Virus record (IMG/VR): IMGVR_UViG_3300037502_002220
Location: 41,445-105,444 of that record
From: a virus
DNA: 64,000 nt
Strand: one strand, 5' to 3'
Under the pieces are notes generated by a model. That model searched no databases. It was not told the DNA's origin and saw only the letters and a list, made by a program, of their open reading frames with translations. Shown piece after piece: positions 32,312-46,120 of this stretch; positions within the stretch are counted from its first letter, which is position 1; each line of letters starts with the position of its first letter. The translations under genes and the position numbers were made by a program.

Positions 32312-32354
32312 CAAAAAAACTGTTTGAGTTAGGTGTTACCCTAACCCAAACAGT
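32312..32354 (-). terminator. Intrinsic terminator after the AAA ATPase
   Basis: actgtttgagttagg/cctaacccaaacagt stem followed by a T-tract on the - strand. Confidence 0.7.
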
Positions 32355-32426: not shown

Positions 32427-33860
32427 TCAACCCTTGTAGTCTTCAGAAGAAAACTCAGAGATAATACCAGGTGCAGCTTTCTGAAGAACAGTGTGCATAA
32501 CCTTACCAGCGTAGTACTCAAGACCAGCAGGTTTCTCTTGATCTTTGTGAATAAACGCATTGTGCTGTGTGATCTGAGAGATGTTAGCTTCGATGAAATC
32601 TTCGCTAAGTTCAATCTTGAGTTCTTCAGCAGCTAAGATCAGACGCTTGCACAACTGCGTAACCTCTGAGCCAGCAATGTTTTCTGGTAAACGATTTGCA
32701 AGCTTTTCTGTGTCGATGTTCTCAAAGCCAGCAATGTGACCCAAGTTAAGGTCCATGATGGTTTTAGACATCTCCTTAGTACAGTACGGAAACTCCACGA
32801 TGAAGTCAATCCTACCACTGCGACGGAAGCTCTGGTGAATACGATCGATGTTGTTTGTAGTAAATACAAAGATAACATCAGTATTCTTCAGGCTTTGACC
32901 ATCAATAGTGTTAAGGATATCGTTCATATCCGAGTTACGCTCGCCACCGAGAACATCGTCAATGTCTTCTGCAAACACTGTAGAGTAACCGTAGTTCTCC
33001 AAGTACGGAAGCAGTGTTTCGAGCTGGTTAGAGTTGTGCAGATAGAAGAATGTTCTACCAGCATCAATGGATTCTTTACCAAGACGGATAGCAGTTTCTG
33101 TTTTACCCGTACCATAAGGGCCATAGAACAACATCTTCTGAGACTTCTTGTTGTGAAGTTTTACATACGGAAGAATCAGGTTCGTAATCGTGACGTTGGT
33201 ATCACGACTAAGTACGATGTTCTTAGCTACCTTGAGGTTGATAGGGTGCATAAGCAAACCAGAACGCAGTTGTTCGATAGTAACAGCTTTCCCTTGCATT
33301 ACTTTGTTAGTAGCAACTTCTTTGCCGATGTTGCTCAAGAAGGCTTCTGCGGTTGCTTTGTACTTGTTCTTACACCGAATACCAATCGCACTTGGTGTCA
33401 ACGTAAGGATAGCATCATCCCATACTTTGATAACCATAGAGCCGATAAATGCAGATTCTTCGATTTTGTTACCTTGGTCATCAAAGCCAATAGGAATTTG
33501 CATGTACGTAGATTGCGTACGCTCACCAGTGTAATCACGTGGCGACTCGATGAACTTACCAATAGTCTTGGTAAGCACGCGGTTTACGGTAAGCAAGAAA
33601 TCGTTCAGGAAGAAATTAGGGTAGTTTTGAGATACTGTGGTGATGTTCTCCCTGTGTTCAAACAGCACTGTAAGTATTTCAGCACCGTGTAGTAAATCCA
33701 TGTTCCTAGGTAACAAAATGTACGGTTGATCATGATACAGAGGTTCTTCTGGAATCTTGTCAACTTTTGACTTGTAGCCGTTAGGCTTCACTGCTCTGAA
33801 GAGATCTTTGATAAACTCAAGACCTGCTGCAGATTGAACTTCTTTGACGTTTTTAGCCAT
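32427..33860 (-). CDS. Classic-clade AAA+ ATPase (likely start MAKNV at 33860)
   Basis: Walker A GPYGTGKT, Walker B FAEDID, SRH TTN..RRSGRID. ATG at 33860 has an A-rich leader; the TTG start at 33908 overlaps the last micro-ORF. Confidence 0.88.
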   Translation of the reverse strand: MAKNVKEVQSAAGLEFIKDLFRAVKPNGYKSKVDKIPEEPLYHDQPYILLPRNMDLLHGAEILTVLFEHRENITTVSQNYPNFFLNDFLLTVNRVLTKTIGKFIESPRDYTGERTQSTYMQIPIGFDDQGNKIEESAFIGSMVIKVWDDAILTLTPSAIGIRCKNKYKATAEAFLSNIGKEVATNKVMQGKAVTIEQLRSGLLMHPINLKVAKNIVLSRDTNVTITNLILPYVKLHNKKSQKMLFYGPYGTGKTETAIRLGKESIDAGRTFFYLHNSNQLETLLPYLENYGYSTVFAEDIDDVLGGERNSDMNDILNTIDGQSLKNTDVIFVFTTNNIDRIHQSFRRSGRIDFIVEFPYCTKEMSKTIMDLNLGHIAGFENIDTEKLANRLPENIAGSEVTQLCKRLILAAEELKIELSEDFIEANISQITQHNAFIHKDQEKPAGLEYYAGKVMHTVLQKAAPGIISEFSSEDYKG

Positions 33861-33894
33861 GATAAAGTGTTTATGAATAAATAAATAAATAGCC

Positions 33895-33996
33895 TTATTT
33901 GTGTGCAACTAATACCAATAACCCACCAGGTTGCTGATAAAAATCACAGTGTACATCTTTAGGGGCAATTAGCCAGTGTAAGTAGTATGCTTGCAT
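33895..33996 (-). CDS. Last array micro-ORF, MQAYYLHWLIAPKDVHCDFYQQPGGLLVLVAHK
   Basis: Manual translation, 33 aa. Confidence 0.6.
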   Translation of the reverse strand: MQAYYLHWLIAPKDVHCDFYQQPGGLLVLVAHK

Positions 33997-35779
33997 ACTT
34001 TAGTATTAAAAAGTAAGAAGTATTACTTAAGTTATTTTCTACTGGAATACGAATATACATGTGGTAATAGAACTTTATTGTGTTCATACTTTAAAGTTTA
34101 ATGTGTAGAAAATAGAAGTCTTTGCTAACAAGAATACAGTTCGTCGTTTCATAGACCACCAGTATTTTTTATTCACGTCAATGCTGTATATATTCATTTA
34201 CTGTATATATAGTTTTTGAACTAAATAACAATAGTTAAGTTCGTATACTAAACTGCAGTGAAAAGTAGGATGTACCCACTCCATGTTTTTAAATATCAAC
34301 ATATTAACTTATTTACTAATATGAATATTTTTGAAGCAGCGTGTATTCTAATTATAGTAGTGCGATAATTGTACGCAAACATTGTTGAAATACCTCTTAC
34401 TAACATAACATGTATTTTAACAAGGCTTTTACATCAACTCTATTTTCATTAGCATTGCTGAAGTAAAAGTCTTGTGCTCTTGTTAATCTTAGATTACTTA
34501 CCTCCATAGTACATACTTTAAGACTGGTACAAGATCAGCTTCTGGTTGATTTGCAAAATGTATTAGTTTTTTAGAACCGTAGTTACTTACATCGTAAAGT
34601 GTAGTACATCTCATACAATAAACTTTAAGCAGCAGTCGTGAAAAACAAGTTGTCTAGTAGAAGCTTTATGTAGTTCTTTACAACCAGCAGAGTAGTTTGT
34701 GAACCTAAGCATTACAAATGTCATAGTACAGGTATTTAATCATCAATAAATACTTAGTGTTATACATCTCTCCAGATATAAAACTACGTAGATTTTGTAT
34801 ATGGTATCTATTTAATCTTTCTGTAGGCATTATTGAAATTTTATAATTAATTGATAACTATTTCTAACCGTAGGTGAGTAAAACATCATATCAACTACAT
34901 GGTACCTTACTTTTATTACGTGCATTTTACAATTATTTTTACGTAGTGATCGTAATAAGGTTTCCACATGAACTTTCTACTTATACGAGCTCGTATGTAT
35001 TGTACTTCTTCACTCCACATATTTTATAGGTATTAGCGCATATGATTTTGTAAATGTATTTGGTCTGTACAATATCTCAGCGTGAGCTCTATCAAATAGA
35101 TAAACAGATTTAGCTGTGTTCATCGTTTTTTACATATGATTAAGTAAATAGTATTTACATTATCAAAATATAAATCACCGCACGATTCTTTCTTAGAACG
35201 GTAATAATACTGATAGTAAAAATCATCTGGTTCAAATTCCATAGTTTACAGTTTATATGTTTGTGATACAATAAAATGTAATTTAGTTCCACCAAACTTA
35301 ATAGTACTAATTACAACTTCTTGCATTAGAAAAAATATGTTCATAGCTGTTTGATTATAACACGGTGCCAGATATCTTCAGAGTAATGTTCTTTATCTAC
35401 AGACTTGTAAATTGTAAATAACTTTACAAATTGTGTAAGCATGCTAGTGGTATTTAAGCATTGTAATAAATGTATGTAGATGATACTCTATTGTTATAGC
35501 TGGGTAGCATTTAGGTACGTAGAACGTATAGCTTAGTTCCATAGTGTATATCTTACTTGTTTGCATGGTACGTGTTTTGTAATTATACCGAATGATTGCA
35601 TTGTGTACGTAAACATTAATTTATGCGGTATAAACGTTTTACTGCGATTAGGTACACAAATAATTAAAATTACTTCCATGATACACGTTTTACTACAATT
35701 CTAAACCCAGTATCTAGTATATTTCTATTAGGAAACCTGAGTTCGTGATTAGCTTGTACAACACCGTTTAGATATATCA

Positions 35780-35902
35780 TCATCGTATAAACTTTAGTGT
35801 TAGTATAAACCTATCTCTTTCTGTCATATTGTTGTGTATATATTGAATAACACTCTTACCCATACCTCTAAAATCTGGATATATACAAATTAAGATCATC
35901 AT
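35780..35902 (-). CDS. Array micro-ORF, MMILICIYPDFRGMGKSVIQYIHNNMTERDRFILTLKFIR
   Basis: Manual translation, 40 aa; ATGA overlaps on both sides. Confidence 0.7.
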   Translation of the reverse strand: MMILICIYPDFRGMGKSVIQYIHNNMTERDRFILTLKFIR

Positions 35903-36018
35903 AGTATTTGCTTTAGTGTTATTTTAAATACGTCGTATATAGTTAAGGTGTCTTGCAAAGATTGAGGACAATCTTTATTTGCATTAAATTTTGGGTAACA
36001 AACTATTATGTAAATCAT
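35899..36018 (-). CDS. Array micro-ORF, MIYIIVCYPKFNANKDCPQSLQDTLTIYDVFKITLKQIL
   Basis: Manual translation, 39 aa; ATGA overlaps. Confidence 0.7.
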   Translation of the reverse strand: MIYIIVCYPKFNANKDCPQSLQDTLTIYDVFKITLKQIL

Positions 36019-36360
36019 GATACATGTTTTAAGATAAGTTGAAATCTATCGTCGTACACAATATCAGCTACAAGGTTTGCTTCTACCCTACTCTTGTAAG
36101 CTGCAGGATTGCGTACAAATATTACTGCTAACATGGTATCTGTTTTAAGGTAACATGAAGTCTAAGCGCATTGATTGAAGGATGACCTAAACGTATGTGT
36201 GAAAATTGTTCAGATTTAATTTGTAGTTCTATGTATTTCATGGTATTTGTTTTAATATTACAGTAATTGTGCTTGTTTTAAGATAACACGATATCTTTCC
36301 ATACTAATTCCCATACCGTGAATATACGCTTGATAAATCGTATTAGGACTAGTTATTATG

Positions 36361-36474
36361 TCAATGTGAAACATGTACTTGTTTTAAGATAATAGAAAAG
36401 CTCTCACGACCACTGTATCCTAACATTATTACAGTTAAAAAAGCGGCTGTGTATCCATATGCGTCAGTTCTCAT
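36361..36474 (-). CDS. Array micro-ORF, MRTDAYGYTAAFLTVIMLGYSGRESFSIILKQVHVSH
   Basis: Manual translation, 37 aa; paralog of its upstream neighbour. Confidence 0.7.
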   Translation of the reverse strand: MRTDAYGYTAAFLTVIMLGYSGRESFSIILKQVHVSH

Positions 36475-36575
36475 GGTATTAATTTTAAAGTAATCGAAAA
36501 GCAATCATATCCGCTATGTCCTAGTTCGTGTACATAAATATAACTATACGCGTGTCCATATGCCCATGTGTTCAT
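36471..36575 (-). CDS. Array micro-ORF, MNTWAYGHAYSYIYVHELGHSGYDCFSITLKLIP
   Basis: Manual translation, 34 aa; ATGA overlaps. Confidence 0.7.
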   Translation of the reverse strand: MNTWAYGHAYSYIYVHELGHSGYDCFSITLKLIP

Positions 36576-37344
36576 AACATTAGTTTTAATATTATTGACA
36601 AATCATCTTGAACAACTTCGTTTAGTTCTACTTCATTAAAAGGTATTACGCCTTTTCCAATAAGTAAGTATATCGTATTCATAATACAAACTTTATCATA
36701 ACTAAAAAATCATCATCAAAAATTGGTATTAAACCACGGTCTTTGTTTACTAGCTTACAAGAATAAAAAGAGTAACCTACGTAACTTGTTAAGTCCATAA
36801 TATTTTGATTGTGATTAAAACACTGTCGTCTGCGTAAAATATGTGATCTACAAGTGTTATGTATTTTGTGTCCATAATATTAGTTTTAACGTAATTACAA
36901 AATCTTCGCACATAGCATTTGAACGTTTGATTTCACGTGCTGTAAGTAATGATTCAGATACTAGTATTCTGTAATATTCCACTTTAAGGTTATTAAAACA
37001 TTATCGTATAAGTTTACACCCCTGTACGAATTAAAATATGTACTAGACATTATTTCTCGTCCAAGAAGTTTAACTGCTTCTAAACGTCGTATTTCCATGT
37101 CAGTATAATTAAGAAATCTTTATCCTCAAGTTTTGTTCTTTTTAATCTATCCAGTAAATGTTCATTACCATGTGTACCAATAGGCATACATAGATCTAAC
37201 ATTGTAAAGTATTTTACTTCCATCACATGTATTTAACCGTAAAAATAAAATCATTCTTGACGTAGCTACAATTACTAAATGCTAGGTAATCTAAATACAG
37301 TTTACAATCTATACTATGTACCCACATTGTTAAGTCTGTAAATT

Positions 37345-37467
37345 TCATACCATGTGTTTATTTGCTAATTGTAAAATAACCTTAAGATGTGCACAGTTAA
37401 CATAAGGTGGAATAAACACATCATTATCTAATAAAATGTATTCCCAATCCCTATATTCTACTTGCAT
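37345..37467 (-). CDS. Array micro-ORF, MQVEYRDWEYILLDNDVFIPPYVNCAHLKVILQLANKHMV
   Basis: Manual translation, 40 aa. Confidence 0.7.
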   Translation of the reverse strand: MQVEYRDWEYILLDNDVFIPPYVNCAHLKVILQLANKHMV

Positions 37468-37577
37468 ACCATGTACTTTTTTATAAGCCTAAAGTTAGGT
37501 TTAAAGAAAGCGTATTTAATAACATAGGGCTCAAGAAACACGTCTGTAGTATAGTTCCAACCAGTTTCTACTTTCAC
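37458..37577 (-). CDS. Array micro-ORF, MKVETGWNYTTDVFLEPYVIKYAFFKPNFRLIKKYMVCK (GTG start)
   Basis: Manual translation, 39 aa; GTGA overlap. Confidence 0.65.
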   Translation of the reverse strand: MKVETGWNYTTDVFLEPYVIKYAFFKPNFRLIKKYMVCK

Positions 37578-38373
37578 GATATTTGTTTTACAGTAATTAA
37601 AGGTAGTACAGTAGGCTTACTTATTCTGCGATCAGCATCATACATTGGATTTGATATAGGAAGGTTTACGTAAAAGGTCATAAATGCTATCATAATCTGT
37701 ATTTTAGTACAAATATTACAATGTCTATCTTAGGTGCATGTTTTAGCTTGTCGTGAAATCTATAGCCATCAAAGGTATAGTCTAATGAAGCTTTCATACA
37801 AATATTTTACTGATGACTAAAAGAGATCTACCTGCGTAAGTTGTTTTTAATTTTCCACTAGAACTGTCGACCCATAAAATGTATAGCAACCTCATTCTGC
37901 ATGTTTTATAGTAATGAATAAACATATTCCACATTTACCAGATCTTCTGTCATTCTTAAGGTTAGTACCTACGACACTGTGTGTTATAATCATTGTATGT
38001 GTTTTAAACTAATTCTAAATCTAAGTACAGTAATGACATAGGCTTTAAGATCCATTTTTAGCACTAAGTCACTGTTCTTTAATGTCTCAACAAATCCTAC
38101 AAATTTCATGGTATGTATTTTACAATAGCTCCAAAATTACTTGCGTTATGGTTCAAGTTTAAATAATCTACAGCTTCGTGTAAACGTATAGTCATGTAGT
38201 TATTTATGTACGGTGTAGTAACTGCTCTGTACATCATTAAGTCTATAAATTTCATGATACAAGTTTTAATGTAAACAAATGTCCACGACTTTGCCGAGAT
38301 GCGTTCATTACATAGGTTTTTGCACGTGTCCGATCACTTGTAAATGGGAGGTATGCAATTATGTGCCTTATTT

Positions 38374-38481
38374 TCACGGTATTATTTTTAATGTAATTAA
38401 TAATCTTTTTGGTATCGTACTTCTTATCAATCTTATGTTGAGGAAGTCAGTGTCATTTTTAAATATTTGTACAAATTTCAT
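38374..38481 (-). CDS. Array micro-ORF, MKFVQIFKNDTDFLNIRLIRSTIPKRLLITLKIIP
   Basis: Manual translation, 35 aa. Confidence 0.7.
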   Translation of the reverse strand: MKFVQIFKNDTDFLNIRLIRSTIPKRLLITLKIIP

Positions 38482-38609
38482 AAAACTAGCTTTAGCATAA
38501 CGTAAAATGAATAAGGAGGTACGTTATCTAATTGTAATACCTCAAGTACGTGTTCTGTTAACGTGCATACAGACTCGTCTTTAACAAGTATCATTTCAAT
38601 AAATCTCAT
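38478..38609 (-). CDS. Array micro-ORF, MRFIEMILVKDESVCTLTEHVLEVLQLDNVPPYSFYVMLKLVL
   Basis: Manual translation, 43 aa. Confidence 0.7.
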   Translation of the reverse strand: MRFIEMILVKDESVCTLTEHVLEVLQLDNVPPYSFYVMLKLVL

Positions 38610-38630
38610 GATTTAAGTTTTAACAGGGTT

Positions 38631-38846
38631 TTACGTAAGTGGTCCAAAATATCTTCTGTTAATTTCAGTTAACAGCGCACTTCTTAAAACAATTAATCCT
38701 ATGTGAAAACTTTTTGCAAGATTGTATTTAAAAATTAATTGCCTGACAATTGAATTTTCATTAAAAGCTAATGATTCAGACTCTTTAGAAATGCCCATTA
38801 ATTCTTCTGTAGATAATTCTTTTAGGTATTCAGCTAATGTTTCCAT
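38631..38846 (-). CDS. 71-aa hypothetical protein embedded in the micro-ORF array
   Basis: ORF track; longer, more charged and lacking the array's terminal pattern. Confidence 0.7.
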   Translation of the reverse strand: METLAEYLKELSTEELMGISKESESLAFNENSIVRQLIFKYNLAKSFHIGLIVLRSALLTEINRRYFGPLT

Positions 38847-39531
38847 GATTTATGTTTTAAAATAATTTGAAAATGTGTACGTTTTACAGAGTAGCTCAAA
38901 TCGAGCACTAAAATCTTATAGTCACTTAAGTAATAAACTAAAGTGTTCACAGTTTATGTTTTTGCACAAAAAAGAAGTAATTACAATCTTTAAAATCGTA
39001 ATCTATAACTGTACATATTTCTGCAAAGTTGATTGTTAAAAGTGTATAGCTATTTTTGAATATTAATACTATATAAACATTGCTCATAGCTTATATTTTA
39101 ATAAGATATTGTAATGAAGCATGTAATTACCTCTACCTGTGAGATATACATCTATACCATTGTGGCGTATATCTAACAATAATCTGAGTGTGTTCATTTT
39201 CTGTATTTTATTACAGCCCAGAAATGCATCAATAAACCTGTACCTATATGTCGATGTAATATTATATTACCATCTGTAGATTTAAAGTTTGATATCTCAA
39301 GTACTCCTAAGTAGTTCATAATGCCAGTTTTAGTAGTGATAAATAACAAAAATCAAGCCTTAAAAAGTGGTTTGTTTCATCGTGGTGTGAGTATGTTATA
39401 CATATGTACATAGAATAAATTTCAGATAGATACATAACTAGGTATGTATTTTAATATTAAATGAGGTGTTATCTTAGCCATAGACATTGTCATAGAATAT
39501 ACGTTGATGTCTGCAAATAAAAGTACCGTCT

Positions 39532-39636
39532 TCATGATAGAATTTTCATTGTTACAGGTATGCTTATTTCATCAGCTTGTAGTGTATATAAATAAAGTCT
39601 ATCGTACTGTGTTATGTATAAAACTTTCATTTTCAT
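39532..39636 (-). CDS. First array micro-ORF, MKMKVLYITQYDRLYLYTLQADEISIPVTMKILS
   Basis: Manual translation, 34 aa. Confidence 0.65.
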   Translation of the reverse strand: MKMKVLYITQYDRLYLYTLQADEISIPVTMKILS

Positions 39637-39657
39637 AGGTAGGTATATTAAACACAA

Positions 39658-39680
39658 ATGCCCTTGGTTTACAAGGGCAT
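39658..39680 (-). promoter_or_regulatory. Hairpin just upstream of the micro-ORF array
   Basis: Perfect 9-bp stem atgcccttg/caagggcat with a weak U-tract. Confidence 0.5.
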
Positions 39681-39851
39681 CGTGGATTACGCAATTTCTG
39701 CAAGTTCTGGTTCTAAACCTGGGTAGATTTCTCGTATCTTAATTTCAGCTTCATCTTTATTAGAAGCTTCAATATGTACGACACCTGCACCAATAAAAAA
39801 AGTAAACGTTTGCTTTTCTTCTTCCATAACAGTTTATTTATTAAGTTAGAT

Positions 39852-39881
39852 AAAAAACCAGGGCTATATTTCAAGCCCTGG
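39852..39881 (-). terminator. Intrinsic terminator
   Basis: ccagggct/agccctgg stem plus T6 on the - strand. Confidence 0.7.
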
Positions 39882-39907
39882 TACATAGTGAATCACAATA
39901 CGAGGGA

Positions 39908-40072
39908 TTACTTATTCTTCCAGATACGTTCTCTAGTCTTCTTTCCGGTAACAGTACACACTGTTTCTAGGTAATATGCACCATGTTTAGGTAGACTTTC
40001 TTTAATAGCTTCGATGCTATCAGCCTCTATGATACGCTTACCTTTTTCGGTCACAATGTAATACTTTTTCAT
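39908..40072 (-). CDS. Small basic hypothetical protein (likely start MKKYY)
   Basis: 3' part of ORF 39908..40186; the upstream part overlaps the FGE-like gene. Confidence 0.55.
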   Translation of the reverse strand: MKKYYIVTEKGKRIIEADSIEAIKESLPKHGAYYLETVCTVTGKKTRERIWKNK

Positions 40073-40079
40073 GTTTGTG

Positions 40080-40904
40080 TCAATAGAAAAAGATATTAGA
40101 CATGTACTCTTCTTTTGGAAACTTATCTTTCCAGATATCCTCGTCCATATAGGGTAAGTTATCGGGAACAGCCATTTTCCACACATTACCTACAGTATCG
40201 TAGATACCGTACTTGTTTGGTTTCTTCTTCTTTACAGGTTGTGTTTTACCACCCATCTCTGCAGTAGTCCATGCAATCTCTTGAATATCTGTACGAGTAT
40301 CTAAGTTCTCAGCATGATCTGCAGCGATTGTAGTCCACTCTGCTTTTGTAGGAAACAGGAATACAGCGTGACCTTTGATAGCTGGGTTATACCAGAACCA
40401 CCACTGACCGTTGTACTCTTTCATGATATACGGCATTGGTTTACCGTGCATATCATTTAACCAGTTGATGTACGAGATTGCGTTCAAGATCTCAAGGTTA
40501 ATCGCTGGGCGATCATCGCGACCATAGTTTTGATCATTAGCGAGATCTCTTCCTGTCATATAACAGAAAGCATCAAACTGGTTGAACGTAACTACGGTAT
40601 CTGCTGATGCAACAAGTGGAAAACACTCTGCAGGTAACGGTACAAAAGTACCTAAATCAATGTCTTTGTCGCTGATAGTCTTTTGCTCAAAAGCACGTTG
40701 TGATGTAGCTACAGCAACTACAAACGGTTCTACAGGTTTTCTGTTGACCACATTAATAATTGCAATAGCATTACGGTGTACTTCTTCAAGCTCTGGTGTG
40801 TTGAAATACTTACGCATTTTAGGTAATGCTTGTGCATACCATTTACCAAAATCTTTAGAAGAAGCTTTTTGTTGAACTTGATCTTTAAATTCTTGTACAG
40901 TCAT
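40080..40904 (-). CDS. FGE-sulfatase (SUMF1/C-type lectin fold) domain protein, divergent
   Basis: VTFNQF..RPAINL..PTKAEW..PVKKKKPNKYGIYDTVGNVW. Confidence 0.75.
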   Translation of the reverse strand: MTVQEFKDQVQQKASSKDFGKWYAQALPKMRKYFNTPELEEVHRNAIAIINVVNRKPVEPFVVAVATSQRAFEQKTISDKDIDLGTFVPLPAECFPLVASADTVVTFNQFDAFCYMTGRDLANDQNYGRDDRPAINLEILNAISYINWLNDMHGKPMPYIMKEYNGQWWFWYNPAIKGHAVFLFPTKAEWTTIAADHAENLDTRTDIQEIAWTTAEMGGKTQPVKKKKPNKYGIYDTVGNVWKMAVPDNLPYMDEDIWKDKFPKEEYMSNIFFY

Positions 40905-46053: not shown

Positions 46054-46120
46054 TGGTCAAAACAGGAATCGAACCTGTATCTAGATGTTATCTAGGTTTT
46101 AGCCATTAAACTATTTGACC
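46054..46120 (-). tRNA. tRNA-like element with shortened anticodon/variable region (possible anticodon AAC, Val)
   Basis: GGTCAAA/TTTGACC acceptor stem, GTTT-AATGGCTA-AAAC D-arm, ACAGG-TTCGATT-CCTGT T-arm; only 17 nt between the D- and T-stems. Confidence 0.7.

What the first reader, a model, noticed from the sequence alone, without database searches (positions are those of the whole stretch)
33895..39636. Hidden array of about 50 translationally coupled, hypervariable microprotein genes
Seen: the ORF track leaves this 5.7 kb nearly empty. Hand translation of the - strand gives about 50 consecutive ORFs of about 28-50 aa (about 110 nt per unit) that tile the region almost without gaps. Most are linked by ATGA/GTGA or short overlaps, with a frame change at nearly every junction. 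Consecutive examples: ...SFYVMLKLVL* / MKFVQIF...LLITLKIIP* / MKIRHII...LFTLKLVS* / MKFIDLM...FGAIVKYIP* / MKFVGFV...FRISLKHIQ*. N-termini are M-polar then hydrophobic, middles are mostly unrelated, and C-termini fit [FLY]-x-[ILV]-x-[LIV]-K-x-[hydrophobic]-x-stop. A run of 50 stop-free, start/stop-interlocked units in AT-rich DNA is very unlikely by chance. Inference: a phage-encoded diversified peptide library (anti-defence decoys or inhibitors, host-takeover peptides, beta-strand-complementing ligands), or a device where serial re-initiation itself matters (ribosome relay or sponge). I know of no described system with this architecture, but could not search.
Basis: partly seen in the sequence, partly recalled or inferred. 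Interest (0 to 1): 0.95.

Follow-up and report, generated by a model that had tools for sequence, protein, structure and literature searches.

The report
Fifty interlocked micro-genes in crAss-like phage
An uncultured crAss-like phage spends 5.7 kb on about 50 real, back-to-back genes for ~39-residue proteins that share only a start and a short tail; the tail's DNA also carries the start signal of the next gene, and what the proteins do is still unknown.

Summary
On the minus strand of 33895-39657, 49-53 ORFs (median 39 aa, period about 115 nt) cover 99.3% of the DNA. Shuffles give 31-38% (maximum 58%).

The ORFs behave as genes:
- A strain with a 93%-identical flanking ATPase keeps the array, with in-frame dN/dS of 0.32 (0.73-0.84 off-frame), uniform along the peptide.
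- A lineage whose ATPase is only 50% identical keeps the same architecture, tail and junction, but with entirely different peptide bodies.

About 80% of junctions use a -1 interlock, usually ATGA. The junction TTAAAA-N8-ATG is dual-coded: it carries the A-rich, unstructured Bacteroidota-type initiation signal for the next gene, and it encodes the tail D-D-phi-x-phi-T-L-K-x-phi. Units are gained, lost and swapped as cassettes at these junctions.

These readings are excluded: stop-codon recoding, an RNA-structure repeat, a promoter per unit, a serial-frameshift polyprotein, and DGR-type mutagenesis.

No family, profile or structure search gave a function. The array is co-transcribed with a Bcs1/YjoB-like AAA ATPase.

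This scan has already followed up similar micro-gene arrays on other phage DNA. I found no published description for crAss-like phages.

Verdict: a real, selected, fast-turnover micro-gene family. It is a new variant of phage hyperplastic small-gene regions, and its function is only inferred.

The parts
33895..39657 (-). Tandem array of 49-53 micro-genes (median 39 aa, period about 115 nt). The first unit starts at ATG 39636 (or TTG 39657) and the last ends at 33895.
   Evidence: 99.3% tiling versus 31-38% in shuffles; in-frame dN/dS 0.32 versus 0.73-0.84 off-frame.
36015..36134 (-). Representative canonical unit (39 aa) with an N-terminal hydrophobic strand, a variable middle and the tail ...Y-D-D-R-F-Q-L-I-L-K-H-V-S.
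   Evidence: AlphaFold2 model: pLDDT 64.7, strands at 2-6 and 31-35, helix at 10-18 (low to moderate confidence).
36015..36032 (-). Example of the dual-coded junction TTAAAA-N8-ATGA. It encodes L-K-x-x-x-stop of the upstream unit. It also supplies the A-tract (-12 to -9), A-3 and the start codon of the downstream unit.
   Evidence: Logos. Ordinary genes of this phage have an A-tract at -14 to -11 and A at -3, as described for Bacteroidota (PMC6847099). The junctions are unstructured.
38631..38846 (-). A 71-aa non-family gene inserted as a cassette between two junction-motif copies (38844-38860 and 38607-38623, 16 of 17 identical). It is absent from the sister strain.
   Evidence: No Pfam or PHROG match.
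39657..39681 (-). Terminator-like hairpin just upstream of the first unit.
32427..33860 (-). AAA ATPase (477 aa from the conserved ATG), 34 nt downstream of the last unit. Its fold is Bcs1/YjoB-like.
   Evidence: Pfam AAA. AlphaFold2 pLDDT 78. Foldseek top hits Bcs1 and YjoB at E 1e-16 to 1e-14 over about 420 columns.
32319..32354 (-). Strong terminator-like hairpin after the ATPase. Together with 39657-39681 it brackets array plus ATPase as one likely transcription unit.
   Evidence: no terminator-like site inside the array.
40080..40904 (-). FGE-sulfatase-domain protein, the conserved upstream boundary of the syntenic slot that holds the array.
   Evidence: Pfam PF03781. Same order in L002 and L070.

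Best explanation
The region is a lineage-specific, fast-turnover family of about 50 genuine micro-genes.

Shown:
- The genes lie on one strand.
- They lie between two terminator-like hairpins, together with a downstream Bcs1/YjoB-like AAA ATPase.
- There is no promoter or terminator per unit.

Inferred from anatomy:
- The array is transcribed as one polycistronic mRNA.
- Each unit is translated from its own start codon.
- That start codon sits 8 nt after a TTAAAA element and usually overlaps the previous stop (ATGA), so ribosomes terminate and re-initiate, or initiate afresh, at every junction.

The junction does three things:
1. In RNA it is an A-rich, unstructured Bacteroidota-type initiation region.
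2. In protein it is the end of a conserved tail, D-D-phi-x-phi-T-L-K-x-phi.
3. In DNA it is 17-20 nt of homology at which units are duplicated, deleted, replaced and even joined by foreign genes.

The products are about 39-residue proteins with a hydrophobic strand at each end and an unconstrained-looking but selected middle.

The most likely role, by inference only, is a renewable set of accessory proteins that act on host or defence targets early or mid infection, like the small ORFan genes of hyperplastic regions in other large phages.
For: Tiling is far beyond chance.

The architecture is kept in a sister strain and in a lineage whose ATPase is only 50% identical. It is absent from 37% relatives, including their full records.

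Selection:
- In-frame dN/dS is 0.32 versus 0.73-0.81 off-frame.
- dS is 0.32, close to the ATPase's 0.40.
- Omega is 0.32, 0.36 and 0.30 for the N-terminus, middle and tail, with a bootstrap interval of 0.24-0.55 for the middle.

Initiation signal: the junction A-tract and A-3 match this phage's ordinary gene starts and published Bacteroidota determinants (PMC6847099). The junctions have no structure (z 0.06).

Tail: conservation upstream of the initiation region sits at codon positions 1-2, with T at position 2 of the alternating hydrophobic codons. That indicates a protein-level constraint.

Cassette turnover:
- 37 of 49 units have collinear orthologues in the sister strain, and none are shared with the 50% lineage.
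- 14 of 18 homology-block ends lie within 17 nt of a unit start (P = 5e-5).
- A 71-aa foreign gene sits between two junction copies.
- The array is 81.5% identical between strains versus 90-92% for the flanks.

Transcription unit: hairpins bracket array plus ATPase with none inside. There are only 3 host-type -7 promoter motifs in 5.7 kb.
Against:
- Peptide composition and GC by codon position lie between random AT-rich translation and this phage's ordinary proteins, so some units may be young or marginal.
- dN/dS of 0.3 is relaxed compared with 0.09 for the ATPase.
- The selection estimate rests on one strain pair and 22 same-length units.
- The fold model is of low to moderate confidence.
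- Nothing links any unit to a target, so the host-interaction role is analogy, not evidence.
Confidence: 0.6

Rival explanations
1. The shared tail is an address tag. The peptides would be clients, adaptors or decoys of the co-transcribed Bcs1/YjoB-like AAA ATPase, or carry a tag for another common partner such as the capsid. The array and ATPase would then form one functional module.
For: The array sits directly upstream of the ATPase in both lineages that have it, within one hairpin-bracketed unit. The ATPase's closest folds, Bcs1 and YjoB, handle protein substrates through the N-terminal domain. A tail conserved across about 130 otherwise unrelated peptides, with protein-level signal, is what a common docking motif would look like.
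Against: ATPase orthologues at 37% identity exist without any array. The link may therefore only reflect a permissive insertion slot. Much of the tail is explained by the overlapping initiation signal.
Confidence: 0.15
2. Only the act of translation matters. Continuous ribosome coverage or serial re-initiation would protect a long transcript, prevent premature termination, or meter expression of the downstream ATPase and replication genes. The peptide sequences would be irrelevant.
For: Near-perfect tiling with start/stop overlaps. Composition is close to random AT-rich translation. The junction motif is kept even where no upstream ORF reads through it.
Against: Frame-specific purifying selection acts on the variable middles (omega 0.36 versus 0.82-0.84 off-frame). 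The D-D-phi-x-phi tail segment outside the initiation region is conserved at codon positions 1-2. A single long ORF would serve the same purpose.
Confidence: 0.1
3. A single giant repeat protein made by programmed -1 frameshifting at every TTAAAA junction, or a giant repeat-protein gene hidden by stop-codon reassignment.
For: 80% of junctions place the next frame at -1. crAss-like phages are known for stop-codon recoding (general knowledge).
Against: About 20% of junctions use other frames or gaps. Judging from the codon counts, roughly a fifth or fewer of the junctions have the T before TTA-AAA that a slippery heptamer X-XXY-YYZ would need. No downstream RNA structure exists. A start codon at a fixed distance with an initiation context is conserved. 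No single stop reassignment opens more than 147 codons.
Confidence: 0.02
4. A non-coding tandem repeat (RNA array, iterons, promoter cassettes) or a decayed gene whose ORFs are incidental.
For: The conserved 17-nt DNA motif recurs at a regular spacing.
Against: Tiling is far above shuffles. Selection is frame-specific. There is no Rfam hit in the array, no fold signal (unit z -0.08), no tandem DNA homology between unit bodies, and no per-unit promoters or terminators. ORF structure is kept across lineages with complete sequence turnover.
Confidence: 0.02

Closest known systems
PeSL-flanked ORFan cassettes in hyperplastic regions of T4-type phages (Arbiol et al. 2010, PMC2839356; Comeau et al. 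2014, PMC4122927)
   Same: Both are clusters of small genes of unknown function between conserved modules. Both have a short conserved motif at every gene boundary. In both, insertions, deletions and replacements between close strains are bounded by that motif.
   Different: PeSLs are a sigma-70-like early promoter plus a stem-loop terminator, giving one transcription unit per cassette. Here the motif is a translation-initiation region that is also coding. It has no promoter or hairpin per unit, the units are about 39 aa, they form one family with a shared tail, and they are frame-interlocked.
Translationally coupled overlapping genes (ATGA stop/start overlaps) in phage and bacterial operons (general knowledge)
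   Same: The same 4-nt overlap geometry and the same presumed termination-reinitiation.
   Different: Such overlaps usually link a few unrelated genes. Here there are about 50 consecutive links in one paralogous family, with the initiation signal fixed inside the preceding gene's last five codons.
Bacteroidota SD-less, A-rich 'Kozak-like' initiation regions (Baez et al. 2019, PMC6847099)
   Same: A-tract around -12/-11, A at -3, and low secondary structure. The same pattern is seen at this phage's ordinary genes.
   Different: In the array the A-tract is shifted about 2 nt (-12 to -9) and is embedded in coding sequence, where it fixes Leu-Lys in the upstream protein.
Micro-gene arrays followed up earlier in this scan on other phage DNA (e1-5669079, e1-5694407, e1-6001993, e1-6024231)
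   Same: Tens of back-to-back genes for 40-65-residue orphan proteins that share only their ends. They are real and selected, whole units are gained and lost, and their function is unknown.
   Different: Those are unrelated phages (T4-like and others) with different end motifs. This one is in a crAss-like phage of a Bacteroidota-type host. It has the smallest units and a junction demonstrably matching the host-type initiation signal. Those notes are unpublished AI reports that I did not re-test.
T-even internal proteins with a capsid targeting sequence; RiPP precursor families such as prochlorosins (both from general knowledge)
   Same: Many small proteins sharing one short conserved segment next to a variable part.
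   Different: In both known cases the conserved part is N-terminal and is recognised by a protease or modifying enzyme encoded nearby. Here the conserved part is C-terminal, and no protease or RiPP enzyme is found next to the array. The upstream FGE-domain gene has no target motif in the peptides (1 of 131).

Membership tests
PeSL cassettes (T4-type hyperplastic regions) | A conserved motif at each boundary of small ORFan genes | tested here: met
   TTAAAA-N8-ATG occurs at most junctions in three arrays.
PeSL cassettes (T4-type hyperplastic regions) | The motif is a sigma-70-like early promoter plus a stem-loop terminator | tested here: not met
   Sigma-70-like sites are not above shuffles and there are no terminator-like hairpins inside the array. 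Only 3 Bacteroidota -7 motifs occur on the coding strand in 5.7 kb. Junction fold z is 0.06.
PeSL cassettes (T4-type hyperplastic regions) | Strain differences are bounded by the motifs (modular shuffling) | tested here: met
   14 of 18 homology-block ends lie within 17 nt of unit starts, P = 5e-5. A foreign gene sits between two motif copies.
Translationally coupled overlapping genes | The stop of the upstream gene overlaps or abuts the start of the downstream gene | tested here: met
   4-nt overlaps occur in 23 of 48, 26 of 52 and 10 of 28 junctions. Most of the rest overlap by 7-19 nt.
Translationally coupled overlapping genes | Downstream translation depends on upstream translation | not testable with these tools
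   This needs reporter fusions or Ribo-seq.
Bacteroidota Kozak-like initiation region (PMC6847099) | A enrichment at -14 to -11 and at -3, with an unstructured context | tested here: met
   In the array, A frequency is 0.75 at -12, 0.89 at -11 and 0.62 at -3. Ordinary genes show 0.57-0.69 at -14 to -11 and 0.67 at -3. There is no structure. The A-tract is shifted by about 2 nt.
Programmed -1 ribosomal frameshift sites | Slippery heptamer X-XXY-YYZ followed by a stimulatory RNA structure | tested here: not met
   Judging from the codon counts, the T needed before TTA-AAA is present in roughly a fifth or fewer of junctions. There is no structure signal. 20% of junctions are not -1.
Diversity-generating retroelement targets | A reverse transcriptase and a template repeat in the genome | tested here: not met
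   No RVT_1 match in the 95%-complete genome. No array-like repeat elsewhere.
Stop-codon-recoded crAss-like genes | A long frame opens when one stop codon is read as sense | tested here: not met
   The longest run is 141-147 codons under any single reassignment.
Any known protein family (Pfam, PHROGs) | A profile match | tested here: not met
   0 of 46 units match at E <= 0.01 in either library. The family profile finds nothing in 1.84 billion or 5.8 billion proteins.
Bcs1/YjoB-like AAA ATPases (the neighbouring gene only) | AAA module preceded by a Bcs1-type N-terminal domain | tested here: inconclusive
   Foldseek top hits are full-length Bcs1 and YjoB (E 1e-16 to 1e-14, about 420 columns), but TM-scores are 0.3-0.5 and identity is 15-17%. 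The oligomeric state is untested.

The most novel reading that the evidence does not exclude
The array is a phage-encoded repertoire of miniature scaffolded binders. The conserved N- and C-terminal strands would clasp together, or onto a common partner such as the adjacent Bcs1-like ATPase, and display a roughly 20-residue variable segment. Junction-mediated cassette exchange would continually renew the repertoire against changing host targets or defences. That would make it a germline-encoded, recombination-renewed peptide library in a virus.
Probability: 0.15. Interest if true: 0.85.

Novelty: new variant of a known kind. Interest (0 to 1): 0.62.

Why it matters
About 5.5% of a 105-kb phage genome is devoted to genes that are short enough to be easy to overlook. 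In this collection they are held only as unnamed or 'hypothetical' proteins, and they match no Pfam or PHROG family.

The array shows how a single 17-nt element can serve three roles at once: a start signal, a protein tail, and a recombination site. A gene family can therefore keep its architecture for a long time (to 50% divergence of a neighbouring enzyme) while replacing all of its content.

Together with comparable arrays this scan has met in unrelated phages, it suggests that tandem micro-gene families are a recurrent, undescribed feature of large phages. If the peptides act on host or defence proteins, each array is a catalogue of very small inhibitors. The array is also a natural test bed for SD-less re-initiation in Bacteroidota.

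Tried and rejected
- blastn of the array against 50,697 phage records found no match.
- Triple-junction DNA scans of IMG/VR gave 67 and 17 hits. All except the known relatives' contigs did not show the tiled micro-ORF architecture, and most had one long ORF with in-frame repeats, largely in giant-virus bins. They are irrelevant here.
- The family profile found 0 hits against 1.84 billion representatives and none among 5.8 billion proteins at E <= 0.01. The profile is too short and degenerate to be informative either way.
- ESM Atlas look-alikes scored at chance level (0.90 or less, with few shared features).
- Complex prediction of ATPase residues 48-236 with a unit gave no answer (score 0.06, mark 0.32, controls not run). 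It is neither support nor evidence against binding.
- The test of indel lengths within orthologous units was set aside as circular, because ORF lengths are multiples of three by definition and small paired gaps are alignment noise.
- The metagenome scan with the ATPase alignment found only array-less relatives.
- The FGE-substrate idea was rejected: the C/S-x-P/A-x-R motif occurs in 1 of 131 units.


Full report
**1. Observation.**
Listing ORFs of at least 20 aa across 33000-40500 shows an unbroken chain of small minus-strand ORFs from about 39657 to 33895.
- 53 ORFs of at least 28 aa cover 99.3% of the region. The plus strand reaches 35%. In 500 order-1 and 500 order-2 Markov shuffles the mean coverage was 31% and 38%, and never above 58%.
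- The best non-redundant chain has 49 units, median 39 aa, median period 114.5 nt. Of 48 junctions, 23 are 4-nt overlaps (ATGA/GTGA), 37 step the frame by -1, and 44 change frame.
- It is the only such region in the 105,444-bp viral record that contains the window.

**2. Context.**
- The record is a divergent crAss-like phage. Its large terminase and portal match crAss-type PHROGs, and the closest cultured relative is Cellulophaga phage phi14:2 at 29% TerL identity.
- The array lies in the long minus-strand block with the replication genes. The order is an FGE-sulfatase-domain gene, two small genes, the array, an AAA ATPase, a cell-wall hydrolase domain gene, DNA polymerase and a helicase.
- Terminator-like hairpins sit just before the first unit (39657-39681) and after the ATPase (32319-32354), with none between them.
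- Sigma-70-like sites are not enriched. Only three Bacteroidota -7 motifs (TAnnTTTG) fall on the coding strand inside the array.
- The anatomy therefore points to one polycistronic transcript covering the array plus the ATPase. This is an inference, because no RNA data could be obtained.

**3. Are the ORFs genes?**
Three independent lines say yes.
- *Conservation in a sister strain.* L002 (ATPase 93% identical) has a homologous array of about 53-57 units that tiles 95% of the 6 kb upstream of its ATPase.
- *Frame-specific selection.*
  - For 22 same-length orthologous units, dN/dS is 0.32 in frame and 0.73 and 0.81 in the two off-frames.
  - dS is 0.32, similar to the ATPase's 0.40. The ATPase's own omega is 0.09.
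  - The constraint is uniform: omega is 0.32 for residues 2-7, 0.36 for the middles (bootstrap 0.24-0.55) and 0.30 for the last 12 residues. The off-frame middles give 0.82-0.84.
- *Deep conservation of architecture.*
  - Loci L070, L071 and L072, whose ATPase is only 50% identical, carry an array in the same slot. It has about 29-33 units, median 47 aa and period 144 nt.
  - It has the same tail and the same junction nucleotides, but its peptide bodies show no detectable similarity to the window's.
  - Relatives with 37%-identical ATPases have ordinary genes upstream and no junction signature anywhere in their records, one of which is 84% complete.

**4. The junction.**
- Aligned on the downstream start codon, the junction reads TTAAAA, 8 nt (often CAnATAyC), then ATG, usually followed by A.
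- In the upstream frame this reads Leu-Lys-x-(Ile/Val)-x-stop.
- The 67 ordinary long genes of this phage have an A-tract at -14 to -11 (A frequency 0.57-0.69) and A at -3 (0.67). The array has A at -12 (0.75), -11 (0.89), -10 (0.68), -9 (0.58) and -3 (0.62).
- These are the determinants that Baez et al. measured for SD-less initiation in Flavobacterium johnsoniae: an A-tract at -14 to -11, with A at -3, -6, -12 and -13 as positive determinants, and low secondary structure (PMC6847099).
- The junctions here are unstructured: mean MFE is -5.4 kcal/mol with z = 0.06.
- So part of the 'conserved C-terminus' is the next gene's start signal.
- It is not only that. Upstream of TTAAAA the conservation continues as D-D-phi-x-phi-(I/T). 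The information is concentrated at codon positions 1 and 2, with T at position 2 in 61-80% of the hydrophobic codons, and the positions are encoded by many different codons. That is the signature of an amino-acid constraint.
- Conversely, downstream of the inserted 71-aa gene the motif is kept although nothing reads through it. That shows a nucleotide-level role.
- The junction is therefore dual-coded.

**5. How the family evolves.**
- With the last 10 residues removed, only one or two unit pairs per array are recognisably paralogous, and most of these are adjacent. This indicates occasional tandem duplication followed by fast divergence.
- Between the window and L002, 37 of 49 units have collinear orthologues and the rest are strain-specific.
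- DNA homology blocks between the two arrays end within 17 nt of a unit start in 14 of 18 cases, against 31% expected (P = 5e-5).
- A 71-aa helical non-family gene (38631-38846) sits exactly between two copies of the junction motif (16 of 17 identical) and is absent from L002.
- L002 in turn has a non-family hydrophobic micro-gene inside its array.
- The aligned array DNA is 81.5% identical, against 90.5% and 92.3% for the flanking genes.
- There is no reverse transcriptase in the genome and no template-like repeat.
- The diversity therefore comes from ordinary divergence plus cassette gain, loss and replacement at junction homology, not from targeted hypermutation.

**6. Rival readings excluded.**
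- *Recoding.* No single stop reassignment opens more than 147 codons.
- *Serial -1 frameshifting.* About 20% of junctions are not -1. Judging from the codon counts, roughly a fifth or fewer of the junctions have the T that a slippery heptamer would need. There is no downstream structure. A start codon in initiation context is conserved.
- *RNA or DNA repeat.* There is no Rfam hit in the array, unit fold z is -0.08, and unit bodies share no DNA homology.
- *Decayed repeat-protein gene.* This is incompatible with precise start/stop junctions being kept in two lineages whose content has turned over completely.

**7. What the peptides are like.**
- The N-termini read M, then a mostly polar or charged residue (K/N/E most often), then hydrophobic residues at positions 3, 4 and 6-8.
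- Mean net charge is +2 and GRAVY is 0.13. Only 1 of 131 units has a membrane-like segment.
- Composition and GC by codon position lie between random AT-rich translation and this phage's normal proteins, as expected for young, fast-evolving genes.
- An AlphaFold2 model of one unit, made with a 46-member family alignment, has pLDDT 65. It predicts a strand at each end and a helix between them. This is suggestive only.
- No unit matches Pfam or PHROGs. The family profile finds nothing in 1.84 billion or 5.8 billion proteins. Atlas look-alikes are at chance level.
- The exact peptides are in the large protein collection as unnamed or 'hypothetical' proteins, with a few strain variants on short ENA/Logan contigs.

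**8. The neighbouring ATPase.**
- It folds with pLDDT 78. Its best full-length structural matches are Bcs1 and Bacillus subtilis YjoB (E 1e-16 to 1e-14), followed by proteasomal and FtsH-type AAA modules.
- These enzymes handle protein substrates, which makes a tail-ATPase link an attractive hypothesis.
- However, orthologues exist without arrays, and the one complex prediction gave no answer (listed under things tried).

**9. Mechanism and comparison.**
Shown:
- The micro-genes are real and selected.
- The junction is dual-coded and matches the host-type initiation signal.
- Turnover is cassette-wise at junctions.
- The architecture is conserved over deep divergence.

Inferred:
- A polycistronic transcript, and termination-reinitiation at each junction.

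Analogy only:
- A role as accessory host- or defence-directed proteins.

The nearest published concept is the PeSL cassette of T4-type hyperplastic regions (PMC2839356, PMC4122927). It shares motif-bounded shuffling of small ORFan genes, but its defining promoter-plus-terminator structure was tested here and is not present.

This scan has already followed up comparable micro-gene arrays on other phage DNA. The phenomenon is therefore recurrent within the scan, although literature searches found no description for crAss-like phages.

I rate it a new variant of a known kind, with interest 0.62.

Noticed in passing
window 46054-46120 (-): Rfam's tRNA model scores 50.3 bits here, but ARAGORN reports no tRNA anywhere in the window. 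An earlier first-reader note calls it a tRNA mimic with an aberrant anticodon loop.
   Followed up: partly
window 38631-38846 (-): A 71-aa helical non-family gene is inserted in the array between two junction-motif copies (38844-38860 and 38607-38623). It is absent from the sister strain and has no Pfam or PHROG match.
   Followed up: yes
L002:8652-8780 (+): The sister strain's array contains a 42-aa micro-gene with a clear hydrophobic membrane-like segment and a basic C-terminus. It lacks the family tail and is absent from the window.
   Followed up: no
window 32427-33860 (-): The AAA ATPase downstream of the array has a confidently modelled N-terminal domain (about residues 50-235). Its closest solved structures are Bcs1 and B. 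subtilis YjoB, an unusual family for a phage replication-gene block.
   Followed up: partly
window 40080-40904 (-): An FGE-sulfatase-domain protein (PHROG label 'kinase') is conserved upstream of the array in both array-bearing lineages. The peptides lack FGE target motifs.
   Followed up: partly
window 35155-35295 (-) and L002:7973-8131 (+): A 46-52-aa ORF overlapping two array units in another frame is open in both strains. It could be chance or an overlapping gene.
   Followed up: no
L003-L069 and L153-L169 (viral-contig hits): Many giant-virus bins contain long ORFs with exact 114-nt (38-aa) in-frame repeats that happen to carry TAAAA-N8-ATGA. They are unrelated to the array but form a large repeat-protein family.
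   Followed up: no
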